Below, one piece after another: positions 2,018 to 26,726 of a DNA stretch of 64,000 nt. The DNA is from Monocercomonoides exilis PA203 (taxonomy: Eukaryota; Protista; Preaxostyla), in contig LSRY02000033.1 in NCBI GenBank assembly GCA_001643675.2, positions 806,001 through 870,000 of the forward strand, in the 5' to 3' direction. The position numbers and the translations under genes are program-made. Numbering within the stretch: the first letter of the stretch is position 1; each line of letters starts with the position of its first letter. Below the pieces are notes generated by a model. That model saw nothing but the letters and a program-made list of their open reading frames with translations, did not search any database and was not told where the DNA came from.

Positions 2018-3793
2018 ATGGATAAAGACGAATCCTTAAATCAAGAAGATATTATTCAATCCGAGCAAAATGAAGAGCTACAAGAAATAGAGGAAGAAGA
2101 GCAACCATCTGAACCCCTCGAAGATCATGATGAAGGAAATGATAATCAAGGGGAGATTTCACAACAACATGAAGATAACGAAGAGCAACTTCAGGAGGAA
2201 CAAGAAGAATTAAATGAAATAGATAATCAAGGAGAAAATGAGGAAATAACCGAGGATAATAATATTTCAGAATATAATGGAAATGAACAGGTGAGTGGAA
2301 ATGAAGAAACTGAAAATACTGAAGTTGTAGAACCTGCTCCGGAAACTGGAGCGACTGACAGTGAAATTTCAGCTTCGGAAAAATCTTTAAATAATTCTCC
2401 TTCAACTTCCAATCCATTAAGAAAATCCATTGAACAAGTTGCAAGCTTAATTCACACACAAAATGATGAATTTATTCAGCAGCAAGCAAATCAAAAGCCT
2501 TCTATTTACGATTCTTCAGCATCATCTTTGTATTATTTCACTCAAAGGGCAATGCCTCCACCAATTAATATTATTAACGAAACAAGATTTCGGCAAATGA
2601 TGAAGCAACCTCTTCGTCCTATTTTTACTATGGATACACTGAGCTGTGCATCGCTCGAAGAAATTTGTGCAAATGTGTTGCAACCAAGCCAAGGAGAGGG
2701 AGATTCATTGCTATCAATGCTGCGTGATCTGAAAATCAGAAAGAGCGAACGTTTGGAGGAATTCAGACGAAGGTCTGAGCAAAGAGAAGAACAAGCCAAA
2801 CAAGAAGCAGAGAAAGAACGGCAAAGAGAAAAAGAAAGGATGAACGAGCGGATGAAGCAATTGGCGAAAGAAAAAGAAGCCGAAGCAAAAGCCAATGTTG
2901 AATCTCCAACCAAAAAGCTCAATCCAGTTATCAATCCACAGCGCCGCTCTCTGACACCTCCAATACGCATTCACGCTCCACAGGGCTCTTCATCTGCGTC
3001 TGGCATATCCAAAAAGCCATTGCCTCCTGTTCGCGATGCCCCGAACAGCGCTGAGTCACGTGGAAGGCCAGGAGTCAGAAGTGTTGGGGCGGTTGGCTCT
3101 TATCGAGGCTATGCTGCTGGCGTCGGAGGAAATCCAAGTGCCAAAAGCGGAGCCAGCAATGCCAGTGGAGCTATGCCAGTTAGGCGGCATCCAGCTTCTG
3201 CCTCGCCTGTTCGCGGTGGAGCAGCAGCAAATCCAAGTAACTTTGCGAATCAGTCAAATGCGGCAGCAGCACAAGCAGGAGGTAAAGGAGGTAAAGGCGA
3301 ACAAACTCGGTTTGGGTTTATCAAATCAAAGGGGAAAAGCGAGGCAGCACCACACACTGGAAAAGGAGCAGATTCGTCAGCGTTTGGGCGGGACAACCTC
3401 GCTCCGCTGAAAGGACCGCTCCCTTCGTCTTCTTCGATGATGTCAAATGTTGGTGTGACAACAGGAAAAGGAGAAATGGCAGTGCCTTTGTCTGCGCTGC
3501 AGTCAGGGGCAATTCCTGTGACAGGCACATTTATGCATCCGTCTGGTGTAAGATATGCTGTTATTCCGATTAGCAGCGGGCCGCCAAGTGGAGAAGGAAG
3601 CAAAGCTGCGCGTGGAGGAGCGAAAGGAGTCGGAAGAGGAGGACCGAGCGCTCCTTTGCCTTCGCAGCAAAGTTCTCATCAAATCACACAAAAAGCACCT
3701 TCTGGACACGCAGCCAGCGGAGCAGCTGCTTCAAAGGTGCAGCCTCAGAGACAAGGCTCATATGCAGCGCAGGCCAGACACAAGAAATCTTAG
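2018..3793 (+). CDS. Hypothetical protein: acidic N-terminus, central coiled coil, basic Gly/Ala/Ser-rich disordered tail
   Basis: Uninterrupted ORF 1988-3793 with first ATG at 2018. Coding-like composition between AT-rich flanks. No recognisable family. Confidence 0.75.
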   Translation: MDKDESLNQEDIIQSEQNEELQEIEEEEQPSEPLEDHDEGNDNQGEISQQHEDNEEQLQEEQEELNEIDNQGENEEITEDNNISEYNGNEQVSGNEETENTEVVEPAPETGATDSEISASEKSLNNSPSTSNPLRKSIEQVASLIHTQNDEFIQQQANQKPSIYDSSASSLYYFTQRAMPPPINIINETRFRQMMKQPLRPIFTMDTLSCASLEEICANVLQPSQGEGDSLLSMLRDLKIRKSERLEEFRRRSEQREEQAKQEAEKERQREKERMNERMKQLAKEKEAEAKANVESPTKKLNPVINPQRRSLTPPIRIHAPQGSSSASGISKKPLPPVRDAPNSAESRGRPGVRSVGAVGSYRGYAAGVGGNPSAKSGASNASGAMPVRRHPASASPVRGGAAANPSNFANQSNAAAAQAGGKGGKGEQTRFGFIKSKGKSEAAPHTGKGADSSAFGRDNLAPLKGPLPSSSSMMSNVGVTTGKGEMAVPLSALQSGAIPVTGTFMHPSGVRYAVIPISSGPPSGEGSKAARGGAKGVGRGGPSAPLPSQQSSHQITQKAPSGHAASGAAASKVQPQRQGSYAAQARHKKS

Positions 3794-20875: not shown

Positions 20876-23307
20876 ATGCAAAATTCTGATGAGGTAAAAA
20901 AAGAAAACTCCGCATCAGGTTTTAACTTCTTTTTTTTGCATTTAAAATAGAAAGTTACGAATTTTTATGCGTTAAAATGAATTTGCATCGATGATAAGAA
21001 TCGTTATTTCTTCTTTCTTCAGACAAAAGCGATAATGCAACCTCGTCATTTGCAGATTTGCCATATTTTCCTCCTGAACTTGATGAAGATGATGAACTAC
21101 TAATTGCATTCCAGCAAACAAATGACGTTTTTGGAAAAGATTTTAATGACTTATTGGCAGAAAAGCACAATCAACTGAAACTTAATACACAACTTCATTT
21201 TTTAAAACATCAATCAACAATAAGATTAAGAGATGTTCCTCTGATAGGGACAAAAAGTGACTACGTTGACAATCCACGAGTAAATCAAACGGTAGGTGTC
21301 GACGGGTTTTATACTAAATTTATTGAAATGGATCGAGATCATTCCGTTTGGGATGCTCCAAGGAGAGTTTTTGGAGTGTCTTTGGTTGAATTTAACCAAT
21401 TTGATGCAAACGTTGTTGGTGTTGTTTATCGCTCAATGCTTTGGAAGCAACCAAAGTGCAATTTTCCATTGATAGCATCTCCTTTGAGTTATGATTCTGG
21501 TCAAACACTTTTAAATGCTGAAAAACGAAGTGACATGACAGAATCTTTGGAGGGTGCTAAAAAAGTTAGAACAGATAACGAGAAAGAAGAAACAGTGGGG
21601 CAAGCATACATACCGCCTTATTATCTTTTCCCATCCTCAAATGAGCAAGACATTGAGCAATTGTCAAAAGTGGAGATGGCTCAAGCATCGCACTCTGCTT
21701 CTGCTCTGTTCATCCCAACATTAATACGCCTCTCATTGCCCTCTTCATCTCCTTCACCCACAACACAGACAGAGCTGAGCGACGAATGGAACAGTGTAAT
21801 TATGCTCTGGTCTTTGCGAAGCCTCACAACTCAACCACAATTTTCTTCGTCTTCTTCATCTTCTTCAGCACCAGCAGACTCTTCAGCTACCCGCACGCCA
21901 ACTCCACTTGCAGTGTTTTCTCTCCCAGCGACTGTCACTTCACTCTCCTTCTGCCCCAACAAATCGTCTGTGCTGTATGCTGGCTGTGCAGACGGCTCAG
22001 TCCATCTTCTTCAGGCTGAGCCATTGGCAAGCGCCATAAGCGAGTCTAACGCCTCTCTTCATTCATCATCCACCCCAAACATTCCCCTCGGTGCCCGCTC
22101 CTCCGTCCACACCATCGTCGATCCGTCGACGTGCGAGGCGAGTGTGATCGCGCTGACAGGCAGTGCTGCTTCGCCTGGGTGGGGCAGAGCGTCTCCTCAC
22201 CCAGCTGCGCCTGGCGGGATGATGGCACTGCGCAGTGCAGAAGGCAAGGTCATCTGTGTCGATGGCCTCGGCACAACCACCCGGTGGAGCGACGACCTCA
22301 GCAAGCAGATCTCATTCAGCTCGTTCATCTCAATGAGCAGCAGCTTGTCTTCGCCTTCCTCTTCTCCTGCCTCTTCTCCTACTTCTTCTTTCTTTTCTGC
22401 CTCATCTGCCCCTATTCACTTCACCACTCACGCCTTCACCACACCCTTTTCTGACTATGCGCTTCTGGGCGCTGAAAACGGCGGGCTGTTCTGTGCGAAG
22501 GAGTCGCGATTCGCCCGCTTTGTCGACTTTGCCGGCACAATTGATGCAATCATGGGTGCCGGCAGTGAAGAGATTGATGTGAAGTTCCCAATTTCTGCGC
22601 TGAAAGTGCACCCGATGTGTGTCTCTCTGCTTTCCACACCCGAAGGAATAGCTGCTTATTCACAGAGAACAGAAGCATCTGCCTTCAGCATGTCAACTGG
22701 GATGTCTGCTCGTTCTCATTCTGCTATGTCATCATCATCTTCTTCTTCTTCTTCCTCTTCCTCTTCTTCTCCTTCTCCTTCTCCTTCTTCACTGGACTTC
22801 TTATCTTCTGCCGATGCTGTGTTTTGTGGGGAGCATCGCCTTGTCTTTGCAGTCAGCTCGTTCAGCGGCTCTGTCTTCGTGTTCTCAACAGCCCCGCTGT
22901 CTGAGTCTTCCCTGCAGCCAAGCACTCGCCCTTCCCTTTTCAATCAGTTCGCAGCAGCATCTTCTCCTTCCTCATTCATGAAATCTCTTCTTCTTCCTCC
23001 ACTTCATTTCTCTTCTCCTGTGAATTCAATAGCTTTTTCTCCCTCCAACCCTGCTTTGCTCGCTGTTGCAACAAACGATGGCACACTGTCATTGTTTGAT
23101 TTATCTACAAAACATACCACTCCATTTGTAGCTGTTAAGCCTCGGTCTTTTCCGCTTGTTTCAATTGCCTGGAGCGGTGATGGATCAAATGTTGTTGCTG
23201 GAAATGTCATTGGAGAACTTTTTGTATTTAATGTTGGAAAGGATTTAATTATTGAAACGGAAAAAGAAAGAGTTGAAATTTTCTTTGATTTATGCAAAAT
23301 AAAATAA
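20876..23307 (+). CDS. WD40 protein, dynein intermediate chain family (DYNC1I/WDR34-like); short first exon ~20876-20918
   Basis: WD40 blades VTSLSFCPNKSSVLYAGCADGSV, ALLGAENGGLF, VNSIAFSPSNPALLAVATNDGTLSLFDL and LVSIAWSGDGSNVVAGNVIGELFVFNV match the C-terminal pattern of dynein intermediate chains. Confidence 0.7.
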
Positions 23308-23396
23308 TAATTTCAAATATTAATTGCGATCTTTCTTAAACTGAAATCATGGGTTAGATCATATATTGCATCTGATCGAACTGTATTTATTAAAGA

Positions 23397-23663
23397 ATGC
23401 TGCTACTTTATTGCGAACACTGCAAAGAATATACTCTTAAAAAGAAATGTAATTGCGGATGCACCCCTAGACCAGCCCATCCAGGTTATTCTTTTTGAAG
23501 TTACAAAAGATATTTGATTATTTGTTTTTTTGATGTTTAATGCACATTTTAACTTATAATTTTAGCACGATTTTCACCAGACGATAAATTTTCAGCTGAA
23601 AGGGTTACACTTAAACGCAGACATAATTTATTACTCACGCAGCAACCGCCACAAAAATACTAA
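23397..23663 (+). CDS. NOP10: H/ACA RNP subunit NOP10 (61 aa); exons 23397-23484, 23566-23663
   Basis: Hand-spliced [77 protein letters not shown] and LLTQQP are Nop10 signatures. Not called in the ORF track. Confidence 0.96.
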
Positions 23664-24230
23664 TTTGATTCTTATCAATCATTTCATCTGATTTTCTTTA
23701 ATTTGTTTTGCATACTGTTTTCAAAACTTTATGTAAACTCTTATTTCCATTTTGTTGAACTTAAAAGCTCAAGTTTCCTTTGATTGCACTTCTTCAGTTT
23801 ATATCTTTAAAAATTATAAAATGCTTTATCAAGCAGTAATTTCCAAATTTTCGAAAGTGCAACAAACGTTATTCCAAATGATCTCGTTACATGTTTAATA
23901 TCATTTTTGATTTTAAAAAAAAGAAAAATATCCTCCGCTTGGGATGCTTGTTTTGTTGGTCAAAATACATTTAAAAGTTTCGAAATTCGTTAAAAAAAAA
24001 TGGAAAAAATGTAAAAAATAAAAAGAATGCATGAAGAAATAAAATAATTGATTTGATTGGATAAATATTTTGCAACTCTTTTTTCTGTAATTATTTTTGT
24101 ATAAGTTTTTGAGGATAGAAACGGATTTGAATGGATGATACGCAGCTGATGCACGACGATAAATAGATGTGATGTGTGAAGCTCTTCTTGCCTTCAAAAA
24201 TCTAACATCTATGTTACGATGACAATGACT

Positions 24231-26726
24231 TTATTTGCTATCTTCTTCCTTTGTGACATGTTTCTCTTCACTAACTGGCGAAGCAGAAGAGGCGGGTATT
24301 GCGGATGGAGCTGAAGAAGATGCTCCAGACGCTTTTCGTTCTTCTGCCATTTTTCTTACAATTGAGACCATTGAAACAGGGTTAGGCTCTGCAACTTCAC
24401 CTTCGCTTGTTTCTTTTTTCTCTTTTTCTTCTTTATCATCCTTCTTATACCTGTTTCCTTCTATTCCAAATTCTTTCATCACTGCCACTGTAGATTCAGG
24501 AAGAATGCATTTCTTTCCTGCCTCTTCCAACTGACAGCAGACAGATAAGATTGCATCCTTTGAATATTCCTTATAAGCATGATCGTATCCGGCTTTAATG
24601 GGAAGCTCTGGGAAGTCGTCCATTAACAGCTTAAATCCGCCATTATTCATCATAGAATCAAAGTTCATGCCCATCGTCATTCCCATCTCATTAGCCAACG
24701 AGTCGAGTGCATCGTCTCTTCCTCTTCCTCTACCGCCACGACCTCCTCGGCCACCCCTTCCTCTCGAGCTCTTTCCACCTCTTCTTCGACTGCTATCAAC
24801 TGCTTCTGACTCTTTCTCCTTTTCGGCTGCTTTCCCTTTACCTTTACCTTTCTTTCCTTTTCCTGATGTGCTTGAGCCAGAAGTGTAATTGTATTGATCT
24901 GATGAGGAATAAGAAAACTGAGTTTTTTCTCCAGCTTTCCCTTTTCCTTTTCCTCCCTCTTTTCCATCAGCATTTTCAGCACCTTCCTCATCCTCTTTTT
25001 TATCTTCTCTCGAATAATAAAATCTTGATGTCTTACTACTGCTTGCAGGAGCTGATGTCTGTCCATGTTCATTATCTCCTCTTCCGCTAGCACCTCCTCT
25101 TCCGCCAGATCCCCTTCCGCCTCTTCCTCTCCCTCTCCCTCCTCCTCTCCTTCCTCTACCATATCCATATCCATCATGTCCTTCTCCATATCCATTTTCC
25201 ATCATCATCATCATCTGCACCATCATCTGCATAGACAGTGGGTCCATGGGCATACCCATTGGCATCCCAAATCCCATTCCGCCAGGTGCTCCCATTCCAC
25301 CTGCTCCCATCATTCCTACTGCTCCGTCAGCCATTCCTGCTCCTTCTCCAAATTCTCCCTCTAATCATATTGCAACAATGGTGATACGTTCAGGAAATGA
25401 ATTTAAAGATATTAGTTATTTATAATTAAAGTCTAATAAGAAGATTTCCAAACCAGGTGGCATCATTCCAAATGAAGGTTTTCCAAATGAAGAGTGCTAA
25501 ATAGCATATTTACAGTGTGAATGAAGTTAAATAAATTTAGAAATTTATTCAAAATAAACAAATTGAGTTATTAAAAAAAATGCAAATATTTGATTATTAA
25601 GTTCAATTTTTAAAAAAATGGCTTCAAACCTGATGTCTATAAAAGCCTGAAGGTGCTCCAAGTGGAGTTCCTTCCATTCCAAAAGCATCTGAACCGCTTG
25701 CTTTTCCTTCCATGCCAAATGCATCTGTATCCTTGTCTTCTTCGCTTGTCTCTCTTAACAATTAAAATATACATATTTTTTTTTATGTTTTAAACCATTA
25801 GTGAATATACAGTACATAAAAGAAATTGATTATAATTTATCAATTCAAAAGCAGTACAGAAAAGCAAATTAAAATCGAATCAATCAATAACTTTAATTAC
25901 AAACAATAATGTTCTTATATGTTCTGCTTTCAATCTTGCAGAAACGCTTTTTCCATCAATTTTCTTTGTTCTACATCTTTCCAACGCTTTTAAAGCAATT
26001 TCCTCGCTATCAAATGTTATCATCCAGGTGTCAGCAACATCAGGTTTGATTGTTTCGATAGATCCTCCAATTTGTTCAAGATCAAATAAATTACGAATTG
26101 TCTATAATTCCAATTAAAAGCATTTGTAAAACAAAAGATAATAAAGCAAAAAACTGACAAACATCTTCTGGAGTAGAAGAAGGAAGATCACGCAAAATTA
26201 CAGTCTTTCTTCGTATTGGTTGAAGATTGGGCTTCACTTTCGTTTTTTCTTCATTCAGCTGCAATTTCTTTGAAGTGCTAAGTGCTTCAACAATTAATTC
26301 TTTATCTGTAGTTATTCTTGAAAGTTCTTTGAATGATGCAAGTACATCCAATGGAACAAATAATTGAGAATCCATTTGCGAAACAAGATAAGCATCTCGT
26401 GCTAAATTCGTTTTCGAAAGATAATATTCAATTTGTGAACGAATTTGCTGGAGTATCACTTCGCGCTCTTTACACGAAAAAGAATTAAAAACAAGAATTT
26501 GAAGAATTATAAAATATAAAAATAAATAAATAATGATGCCAATCAGATTAAAAATATAATGTAAATGAAATTAAATGAAATAAATATTGCATAAATATAA
26601 ATAGCATTCATTTGACAATAGCACGAAAATCAATAAACAAAATGATGAATTAAAAAAAAAATTCACACCACTTTCAGTTGAAGGTATTTGATCTTGGGTT
26701 TCAGGCTGAGTGTCAGAGGGTTGCAT
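24231..26726 (-). CDS. La-related RNA-binding protein (La HTH + RRM, LARP4-like) with Gly/Met and RGG-rich tail; multi-exon
   Basis: La motif IRSQIEYYLSKTNLARDAYLVSQMDSQLFVPL. RRM TVILRDLPSSTPED...DTWMITFDSEEIALKA matches the LARP4 type. The last exon (24231-25334) carries RGRGG repeats. Confidence 0.85.

What the first reader, a model, noticed from the sequence alone, without database searches (positions are those of the whole stretch)
23397..23663. Eukaryotic NOP10 retaining an archaeal-type Cys4 zinc ribbon
Seen: the N-terminus reads [17 protein letters not shown], while the C-terminus ([11 protein letters not shown]...LLTQQP) is eukaryotic in type and the gene has a spliceosomal intron. 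Established: archaeal Nop10 binds zinc through CxxC-xxYTLK-CxxCG, whereas yeast and human Nop10 lack these cysteines. Inference: this lineage keeps, or regained, the ancestral metal-binding ribbon, giving a possible intermediate between archaeal and eukaryotic H/ACA RNPs. The gene is short enough to be missed by automated annotation.
Basis: partly seen in the sequence, partly recalled or inferred. Interest (0 to 1): 0.75.

Follow-up and report, generated by a model that had tools for sequence, protein, structure and literature searches.

The report
Protist NOP10 keeps archaeal zinc ribbon
This is a real, spliced gene for NOP10, a small subunit of the H/ACA RNA-modifying machine, whose four conserved cysteines likely bind zinc as in archaea; similar cysteine sets occur in Trichomonas, Barthelona, a red alga and many unnamed eukaryotes, so it is likely an old eukaryotic trait that reviews overlooked and not a peculiarity of this lineage.

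Summary
The gene has two exons (23397-23484, 23566-23663) and encodes a 61-residue NOP10; RNA contigs confirm the 81-nt GT-AG intron. C6, C9, C18 and C20 line up with the archaeal zinc ligands, but the second pair is CxC, not CxxC, and C22 is not conserved. The C-terminal part is about 70% identical to eukaryotic and under 30% to archaeal Nop10. The claim of a special lineage fails. A Cys-weighted search gave 19 Cys-type eukaryotic Nop10 among its best 120: Trichomonas, Tritrichomonas, Barthelona, Cyanidioschyzon (one Cys replaced by His) and unnamed eukaryotes. Seven other records share the CxC form. All 72 Asgard proteins examined keep both ligand pairs. Best reading: a structural zinc site inherited from the archaeal ancestor through LECA and replaced by a zinc-free hairpin in most sampled eukaryotes. 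Zinc binding is untested, and trees cannot count the losses. Two reviews call the ribbon archaea-only, and ten literature searches showed no report in protists, but the primary structure papers could not be read. This scan noted the trait before in Giardia. Verdict: a new variant of a known protein, widespread, modest interest.

The parts
23397..23484 (+). NOP10 exon 1: codons 1-29 plus one base; holds the whole Cys ribbon and the AHP start of the linker
   Evidence: Pfam PF04135 positions 4-32; best PDB sequence hits are archaeal Nop10, weak E 0.9-1.5; RNA contigs
23412..23423 (+). First knuckle C6-x2-C9, two residues before YTLK as in archaea
   Evidence: Sequence; C6 invariant, C9 in 22 of 23 rows
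23448..23456 (+). Second knuckle C18-x-C20, one residue shorter than the archaeal CxxC
   Evidence: One-residue gap against archaeal chains; same CxC form in P0182, P0275, P0278, P0279, P0281, L001, L006
23460..23462 (+). Fifth cysteine C22, not conserved, likely not a ligand
   Evidence: Only the window has Cys in this column among 23 rows
23485..23565 (+). Spliceosomal intron, 81 nt, GT..AG, phase 1 inside the Ala codon after AHP
   Evidence: Joints; read-through proteins P0122, P0123, P0183, P0231 of ordinary eukaryotic type have an insertion beginning with Gly at the same place
23566..23663 (+). NOP10 exon 2: RFSPDDK linker and basic C-terminal helix of eukaryotic type, stop TAA
   Evidence: Pfam PF04135 positions 34-51; best PDB hits human 7bgb (E 1.7e-7), insect, yeast
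23325..23829 (+). Stretch covered by the spliced NOP10 RNA contigs (ends of the RNA not shown by contigs)
   Evidence: Table 8

Best explanation
This gene encodes the organism's NOP10, whose N-terminal ribbon likely binds one structural zinc ion through C6, C9, C18 and C20, a site likely inherited from the archaeal ancestor through the last eukaryotic common ancestor. Shown: the gene, the splice, family membership, conservation and alignment of the four Cys. From established knowledge (PMC1865073, PMC7991803, passages): Nop10 lies behind the Cbf5 active site, its linker braces the catalytic domain, and in archaea the zinc ribbon is the stably folded part of the free protein. Inferred: here zinc would pre-fold the N-terminal ribbon in the same way and have no catalytic role; a one-residue deletion tightened the second knuckle to CxC; most sampled eukaryotes replaced the ribbon by a zinc-free hairpin whose first loop is three residues longer.
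For: Four Cys conserved across 23 Cys-type rows. Loop lengths match archaea: Tyr-to-Arg distance is 20 in 94 of 95 archaeal proteins measured and in 26 Cys-type eukaryotic proteins, against 18-19 in 316 ordinary ones; the window has 19. Both ligand pairs are kept in 72 of 72 Asgard proteins examined, and 6 of them use CxC in the first knuckle, so the family tolerates CxC. Cys type in Parabasalia, Barthelona and a red alga. The exon-1 model (pLDDT 84.3) fits archaeal Nop10 best: Foldseek ranks 1-4, rmsd 1.5-1.9, against 3.1-3.2 for yeast and human; VIA rank 1 is 2hvy_C, Z 3.1. Vertical descent: C-part identity 70% to ordinary eukaryotes, 26-29% to archaea; all 47 eukaryotic rows lie on one side of a branch with and without the ribbon columns; intron positions are shared between Cys-type and ordinary genes.
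Against: No metal was measured or modelled. The fold matches are not significant by themselves (E 0.5-1.0; Z 3.1) and follow partly from loop length. The zinc-free hairpin is shared by animals, fungi, Acanthamoeba, green algae and Plasmodiophora while a red alga has the Cys type, so simple retention needs several convergent losses, hidden paralogues or a regain in the alga. Without the ribbon columns the tree is unresolved inside eukaryotes (2 of 71 branches starred). The window's own lineage and those of the unnamed Cys-type records were not identified. An earlier unchecked note of this scan reads a Cys-rich animal NOP10 as secondary.
Confidence: 0.68

Rival explanations
1. The cysteines are old and conserved but the shortened CxC knuckle no longer binds zinc stably, or binds iron, or uses C22 or H8 as a ligand.
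For: CxC departs from the second-knuckle CxxC of all 72 Asgard proteins examined; extra C22 and H8 offer other ligand sets; P0303 keeps a single Cys, which shows that the site can decay.
Against: CxC in the second knuckle recurs with all four Cys intact in 7 other records; CxC occurs in the first knuckle of 6 of 72 Asgard proteins; C22 is not conserved.
Confidence: 0.12
2. LECA had two NOP10 paralogues, one with the zinc ribbon and one with the zinc-free hairpin, and lineages kept one or the other.
For: With all columns the 24 ordinary rows, from both Amorphea and green algae/Rhizaria, form one side of a branch (98/95), which cuts across the species tree given that C. merolae is Cys-type.
Against: That branch rests on the trait's own columns and vanishes without them (9 changes). 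No genome holding both types was seen, though this was not searched for systematically. Shared intron positions fit one gene equally well.
Confidence: 0.1
3. This lineage regained cysteines on a zinc-free eukaryotic hairpin.
For: The second loop has the ordinary eukaryotic length (19); an earlier unchecked note proposes such a regain in an animal.
Against: It needs four Cys gains plus an exact three-residue deletion back to the archaeal first loop (Met-to-Tyr 11 against 14), repeated in Parabasalia, Barthelona and many unnamed lineages; N-part identity is 49% to other Cys-type eukaryotes and 34% to ordinary ones.
Confidence: 0.07
4. The gene, or its first exon, came from an archaeon by transfer, or the contig is contaminated.
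For: Exon 1 is best matched by archaeal chains in the PDB; AU test on 35 columns does not reject the window branching next to archaea (p 0.37), a test without power here.
Against: Spliced intron at a position shared with ordinary eukaryotic NOP10; eukaryotic neighbours (kinases, RasGEF, La, Kelch); exon 1 is closer to Cys-type eukaryotes (49%) than to archaea (37-41%).
Confidence: 0.02

Closest known systems
Archaeal Nop10 (Pyrococcus furiosus PDB 2hvy_C, 3lwq_B, 2ey4_E; P. abyssi 2aus; M. jannaschii 2apo_B)
   Same: CxxC two residues before YTLK, second Cys pair, first-loop length; predicted ribbon fits at rmsd 1.5-1.9.
   Different: Second pair CxC, loop one residue shorter; C-part only 26-29% identical; gene has an intron.
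Ordinary eukaryotic NOP10/Nop10p (human PDB 7bgb, insect 9yfl, yeast 1y2y and 3u28, Acanthamoeba P0009)
   Same: [11 protein letters not shown] linker and C-terminal helix, about 70% identical; second-loop length; intron position.
   Different: These have no Cys pairs (0 of 120) and a first loop three residues longer.
Cys-type eukaryotic Nop10 of Trichomonas vaginalis (XP_001322835.1), Tritrichomonas foetus (OHT17676.1), T. musculus (KAK8894134.1), Barthelona sp. PAP020 (EP00792 P006187), Cyanidioschyzon merolae (XP_005536141.1)
   Same: Cys ribbon joined to a eukaryotic C-part; annotated public proteins.
   Different: They keep CxxC in the second knuckle (C. merolae has C-x5-H in the first); the window has CxC and a fifth Cys, a form seen only in unnamed records.

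Membership tests
Nop10p family (PF04135) | Match to the Pfam profile over ribbon/hairpin, linker and helix | tested here: met
   Exon 1 23.8 bits (positions 4-32), exon 2 28.2 bits (34-51, over the 27.2 cut-off alone); no other family
Eukaryotic NOP10 | [11 protein letters not shown] linker and eukaryotic C-terminal helix; grouping with eukaryotes | tested here: met
Eukaryotic NOP10 | Expressed and spliced transcript | tested here: met
   RNA contigs skip 23485-23565
Eukaryotic NOP10 as described in reviews | Zinc-free N-terminal beta-hairpin | tested here: not met
   Four aligned Cys and archaeal first-loop length; reviews' statement read
Eukaryotic NOP10 | Binds Cbf5/dyskerin, Nhp2 and H/ACA RNA | not tested
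   No genome is held for the window, so the partner genes were not in hand; no complex job was run
Archaeal-type Nop10 zinc ribbon | First knuckle CxxC two residues before YTL | tested here: met
Archaeal-type Nop10 zinc ribbon | Second knuckle CxxC with archaeal loop length | tested here: not met
   CxC, Tyr-to-Arg distance 19 against 20; met by Trichomonas, Tritrichomonas and Barthelona
Archaeal-type Nop10 zinc ribbon | Ribbon fold | tested here: inconclusive
   Top matches are archaeal Nop10 but E 0.5-1.0 and Z 3.1 on a 30-residue model
Archaeal-type Nop10 zinc ribbon | Bound zinc | not testable with these tools
   Needs metal analysis

The most novel reading that the evidence does not exclude
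The switch from zinc ribbon to zinc-free hairpin happened once, after metamonads and some unnamed lineages had branched off, so NOP10 carries a rare marker for the root of eukaryotes; the window's CxC form would preserve a step on that path (second loop already shortened to the modern length, first loop still archaeal), and C. merolae would be a separate regain or paralogue.
Probability: 0.15. Interest if true: 0.65.

Novelty: new variant of a known kind. Interest (0 to 1): 0.33.

Why it matters
It corrects a statement repeated in reviews that the Nop10 zinc ribbon is unique to archaea. LECA's H/ACA particle likely had a zinc-bound Nop10, and living protists offer natural chimeras of an archaeal N-terminus and a eukaryotic C-terminus for testing what the ribbon adds. 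The ribbon/hairpin state could be mapped as a rare character on the eukaryote tree. The biochemical change is small and structural, and no new function follows, so the payoff is evolutionary. The gene model also seems to be missing from public protein sets.

Tried and rejected
No whole genome is held, so copy number and partner genes were not examined. The first homologue search with the unspliced window gave 1 candidate. Viral contigs: 48 pattern matches, none a relative. ESM Atlas gave only Nop10p clusters, archaeal where taxa are recorded, and no eukaryotic lineage. Neighbours of L001, L006 and L023 did not reveal their lineage. Trees without the ribbon columns are unresolved inside eukaryotes. 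AU tests on 74 rows did not finish; on 27 of the 74 rows they rejected nothing (p 0.37, 0.37, 0.62). The archaeal set was selected for four Cys and says nothing about their frequency; 4 of its 111 translated matches look like PolD large subunit and were dropped, with long ones, before counting. Three rows flagged Cys-rich (P0213, P0223, P0229) are intron read-throughs and were not counted. Two primary structure papers were not held. Giardia, Discoba, Malawimonas, CRuMs and other red algae were not seen among listed hits: only the best 120 of 3154 and 150 of 1161 were listed, so their state is open. No complex prediction was run, since Nop10-Cbf5 is a textbook pair and zinc would not be scored.

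Full report
Observation. The window has an ATG at 23397, a GT donor at 23485, an AG acceptor ending at 23565 and a TAA ending at 23663. Unspliced, the frame has three internal stops; spliced it gives 61 residues. Each exon hits Pfam Nop10p and nothing else. RNA contigs skip exactly these 81 bases in X1, X2, X3 and X1, X4, all of one study. X5, of a second study, joins the same exons with three other letters that I read as two synonymous changes. The N-terminus has five Cys (6, 9, 18, 20, 22). Against archaeal chains in the PDB, C6, C9, C18 and C20 align with the archaeal ligands with a one-residue gap in the second knuckle (E 0.9-1.5). Exon 2 is best matched by human, insect and yeast Nop10. 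The neighbours are eukaryotic genes: a WD40 protein upstream, a spliced La-domain gene downstream, kinases, RasGEF and Kelch proteins.

How rare is it? A search centred on an ordinary fungal Nop10 gave 2004 hits; none of the 120 listed has more than one Cys before AHP. A profile search of 50%-identity representatives gave 1161 hits, and 2 of the 150 listed are Cys-type eukaryotic proteins, P0247 and P0182. A profile of these two and the window gave 3154 hits; 19 of the 120 listed have ligand pairs in both knuckles, among them the first 14 rows, and one more (P0303) keeps a single Cys. Cluster look-up named T. vaginalis (two copies), Tritrichomonas musculus, T. foetus and Barthelona sp. PAP020, all CxxC/CxxC, and Cyanidioschyzon merolae with C-x5-H/CxxC. 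Among 80 metagenome loci kept from 551, 6 are Cys-type: L001, L006, L023 and three copies of the C. merolae protein. The window's CxxC/CxC form recurs in P0182, P0275, P0278, P0279, P0281, L001 and L006, all unnamed. These counts are lower bounds from ranked, biased lists and not frequencies.

Conservation. In 23 aligned Cys-type rows (the window's exon 1 and 22 proteins), C6, Y12 and C18 are invariant and C9 and C20 at least 90% conserved; C22 is in the window only. Loop lengths over 366 held proteins and the archaeal set: Met-to-Tyr is 11 in CxxC-type proteins and in the window, and 14 in most ordinary ones. Tyr-to-Arg is 20 in 94 of 95 archaeal proteins measured and in 26 Cys-type eukaryotic ones, 19 in the window and two other CxC proteins, and 19 or 18 in 266 and 50 ordinary ones. 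So the window has an archaeal first loop and a second loop of the common eukaryotic length. In the phylum of G001 (its locus L194 is titled Ca. Jordarchaeum, an Asgard archaeon), 148 of 151 genomes have a PF04135 match. I read 72 of them: two, the 30 best, and 40 picked from the weak and middle ranks. All 72 keep ligands in both knuckles: 64 CxxC/CxxC (two of them assigned by eye), 6 CxC/CxxC, one Cx4C and one Cx3H in the first knuckle.

Descent. The part from AHP onward is on average 70% identical to 24 ordinary eukaryotic rows, 69% to 22 Cys-type rows, 26% to 15 Asgard and 29% to 12 other archaeal rows; the N-part gives 34, 49, 37 and 41%. In a 74-row tree all 47 eukaryotic rows lie on one side of a branch (97/89), and so do the 24 ordinary rows (98/95), but this includes the trait's own columns. 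Without them eukaryotes still need one change, while Cys-type and ordinary rows mix (9 changes, 2 of 71 branches starred), and AU tests on 27 rows reject nothing. Introns link the two types. Four read-through proteins of ordinary type carry an insertion beginning with Gly right after AHP, where the window's intron lies (inferred from protein only). Two Cys-type read-throughs carry an insertion after YTLK, where ordinary loci such as L033, L041, L048 and L050 have a phase-0 GT-AG intron. This fits one eukaryotic gene descended from LECA and speaks against transfer or contamination.

Structure. Exon 1 (30 residues) folded on the 23-row alignment gave mean pLDDT 84.3, pTM 0.42. Foldseek ranks four archaeal Nop10 chains first (rmsd 1.5-1.9, TMq 0.72-0.79, E 0.5-1.0) and yeast and human lower (rmsd 3.1-3.2). 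VIA-align ranks 2hvy_C first at Z 3.1. The scores are low and no metal was modelled, so this is consistent with the ribbon, not proof. The archaeal NCBIfam model PRK13130 scores Barthelona 68.6 bits (cut-off 68), T. vaginalis 64.6 and Acanthamoeba 39.3.

Mechanism. From two reviews (passages read): Nop10 sits behind the Cbf5 active site and its conserved linker contacts motif I; the archaeal N-terminal zinc ribbon is stable in the free protein, and eukaryotes are said to have replaced it by a simple, partly stable hairpin (PMC1865073; PMC7991803, which calls the ribbon 'unique to archaeal Nop10'). I infer that the window's protein does the same job, with zinc on C6, C9, C18 and C20 pre-folding the N-terminus. 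Binding to Cbf5 and to zinc is inferred, not shown.

History. Retention from an Asgard-like ancestor is the simplest source of the motif. The difficulty is the zinc-free hairpin, shared by Amorphea, green algae and Plasmodiophora while a red alga has the Cys type: that needs repeated loss, two paralogues in LECA, or a regain in C. merolae, whose first knuckle is atypical. Nop10 is too short to decide.

Annotation. The window's protein was not among the candidates (48-154 residues) nor the best 120 (34-172 residues), although its exons were in the query; a gene at 2018-3790 is in NCBI, UniRef and EukProt. The gene is therefore likely missing from public protein sets. Longer, mis-joined models were not searched.

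Literature. Ten searches, read as listings, showed no paper on a Cys-type eukaryotic Nop10. Passages of PMC6461891, PMC11427974, PMC8096250 and PMC12745780 say nothing on it. No supplement was opened. Two primary structure papers were not held and two more were not tried; their alignments could show protist sequences. The T. vaginalis and C. merolae proteins are long-annotated public records. This scan's earlier notes report the trait in Giardia (e1-598775) and a likely secondary Cys set in an animal (e1-9554861); I saw them after reaching my reading, confirmed the spread among protists, and checked neither gene.

Verdict. Real gene and real motif, likely a structural zinc site of ancient origin. 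It is not unique to this lineage, whose only distinctive marks are the CxC knuckle, shared with unnamed eukaryotes, and an unconserved fifth Cys. New variant of a known kind; interest 0.33.

Noticed in passing
window 23349-23357 (+): A two-codon upstream frame (ATG GGT TAG), in frame with NOP10, lies inside the stretch covered by the spliced RNA contigs of X1 and X2.
   Followed up: no
window 23307-23341: The upstream WD40 gene stops at 23307; an RNA contig over its end reaches 23341 (X3) while NOP10 contigs begin at 23325, so the two transcripts may overlap.
   Followed up: no
window 23992-26669 (-): A La-domain gene with an RGG-rich C-terminal exon faces NOP10 tail to tail; RNA contigs show five introns.
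   Followed up: partly
P0366, P0310, L002-L004: Cyanidioschyzon merolae Nop10 has C-x5-H in the first knuckle and CxxC in the second, with a first loop between the archaeal and ordinary eukaryotic lengths.
   Followed up: partly
L238-L240, L242, L243, L253: An Asgard subgroup has CxC in the first knuckle with a longer middle loop, the mirror image of the window; another subgroup (e.g. L246, L249, L256) has YGL-like letters in place of YTL.
   Followed up: partly
P0303: An unnamed eukaryotic Nop10 with the short first loop but a single Cys left, a possible independent loss of the site.
   Followed up: no
L006:9-215 and 238-1104: Cys-type Nop10 with four extra residues after YTLK, at the shared intron site, followed closely by a 288-codon frame that resembles an ADP-ribosyltransferase (resemblance recalled, untested).
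   Followed up: no
L110, L145, L170, L177: The Cys pattern also caught what look like PolD large-subunit zinc motifs (label recalled; weak cross-hit); L145 and L170 lie in records titled as bacteria, possibly mis-binned archaeal contigs.
   Followed up: no
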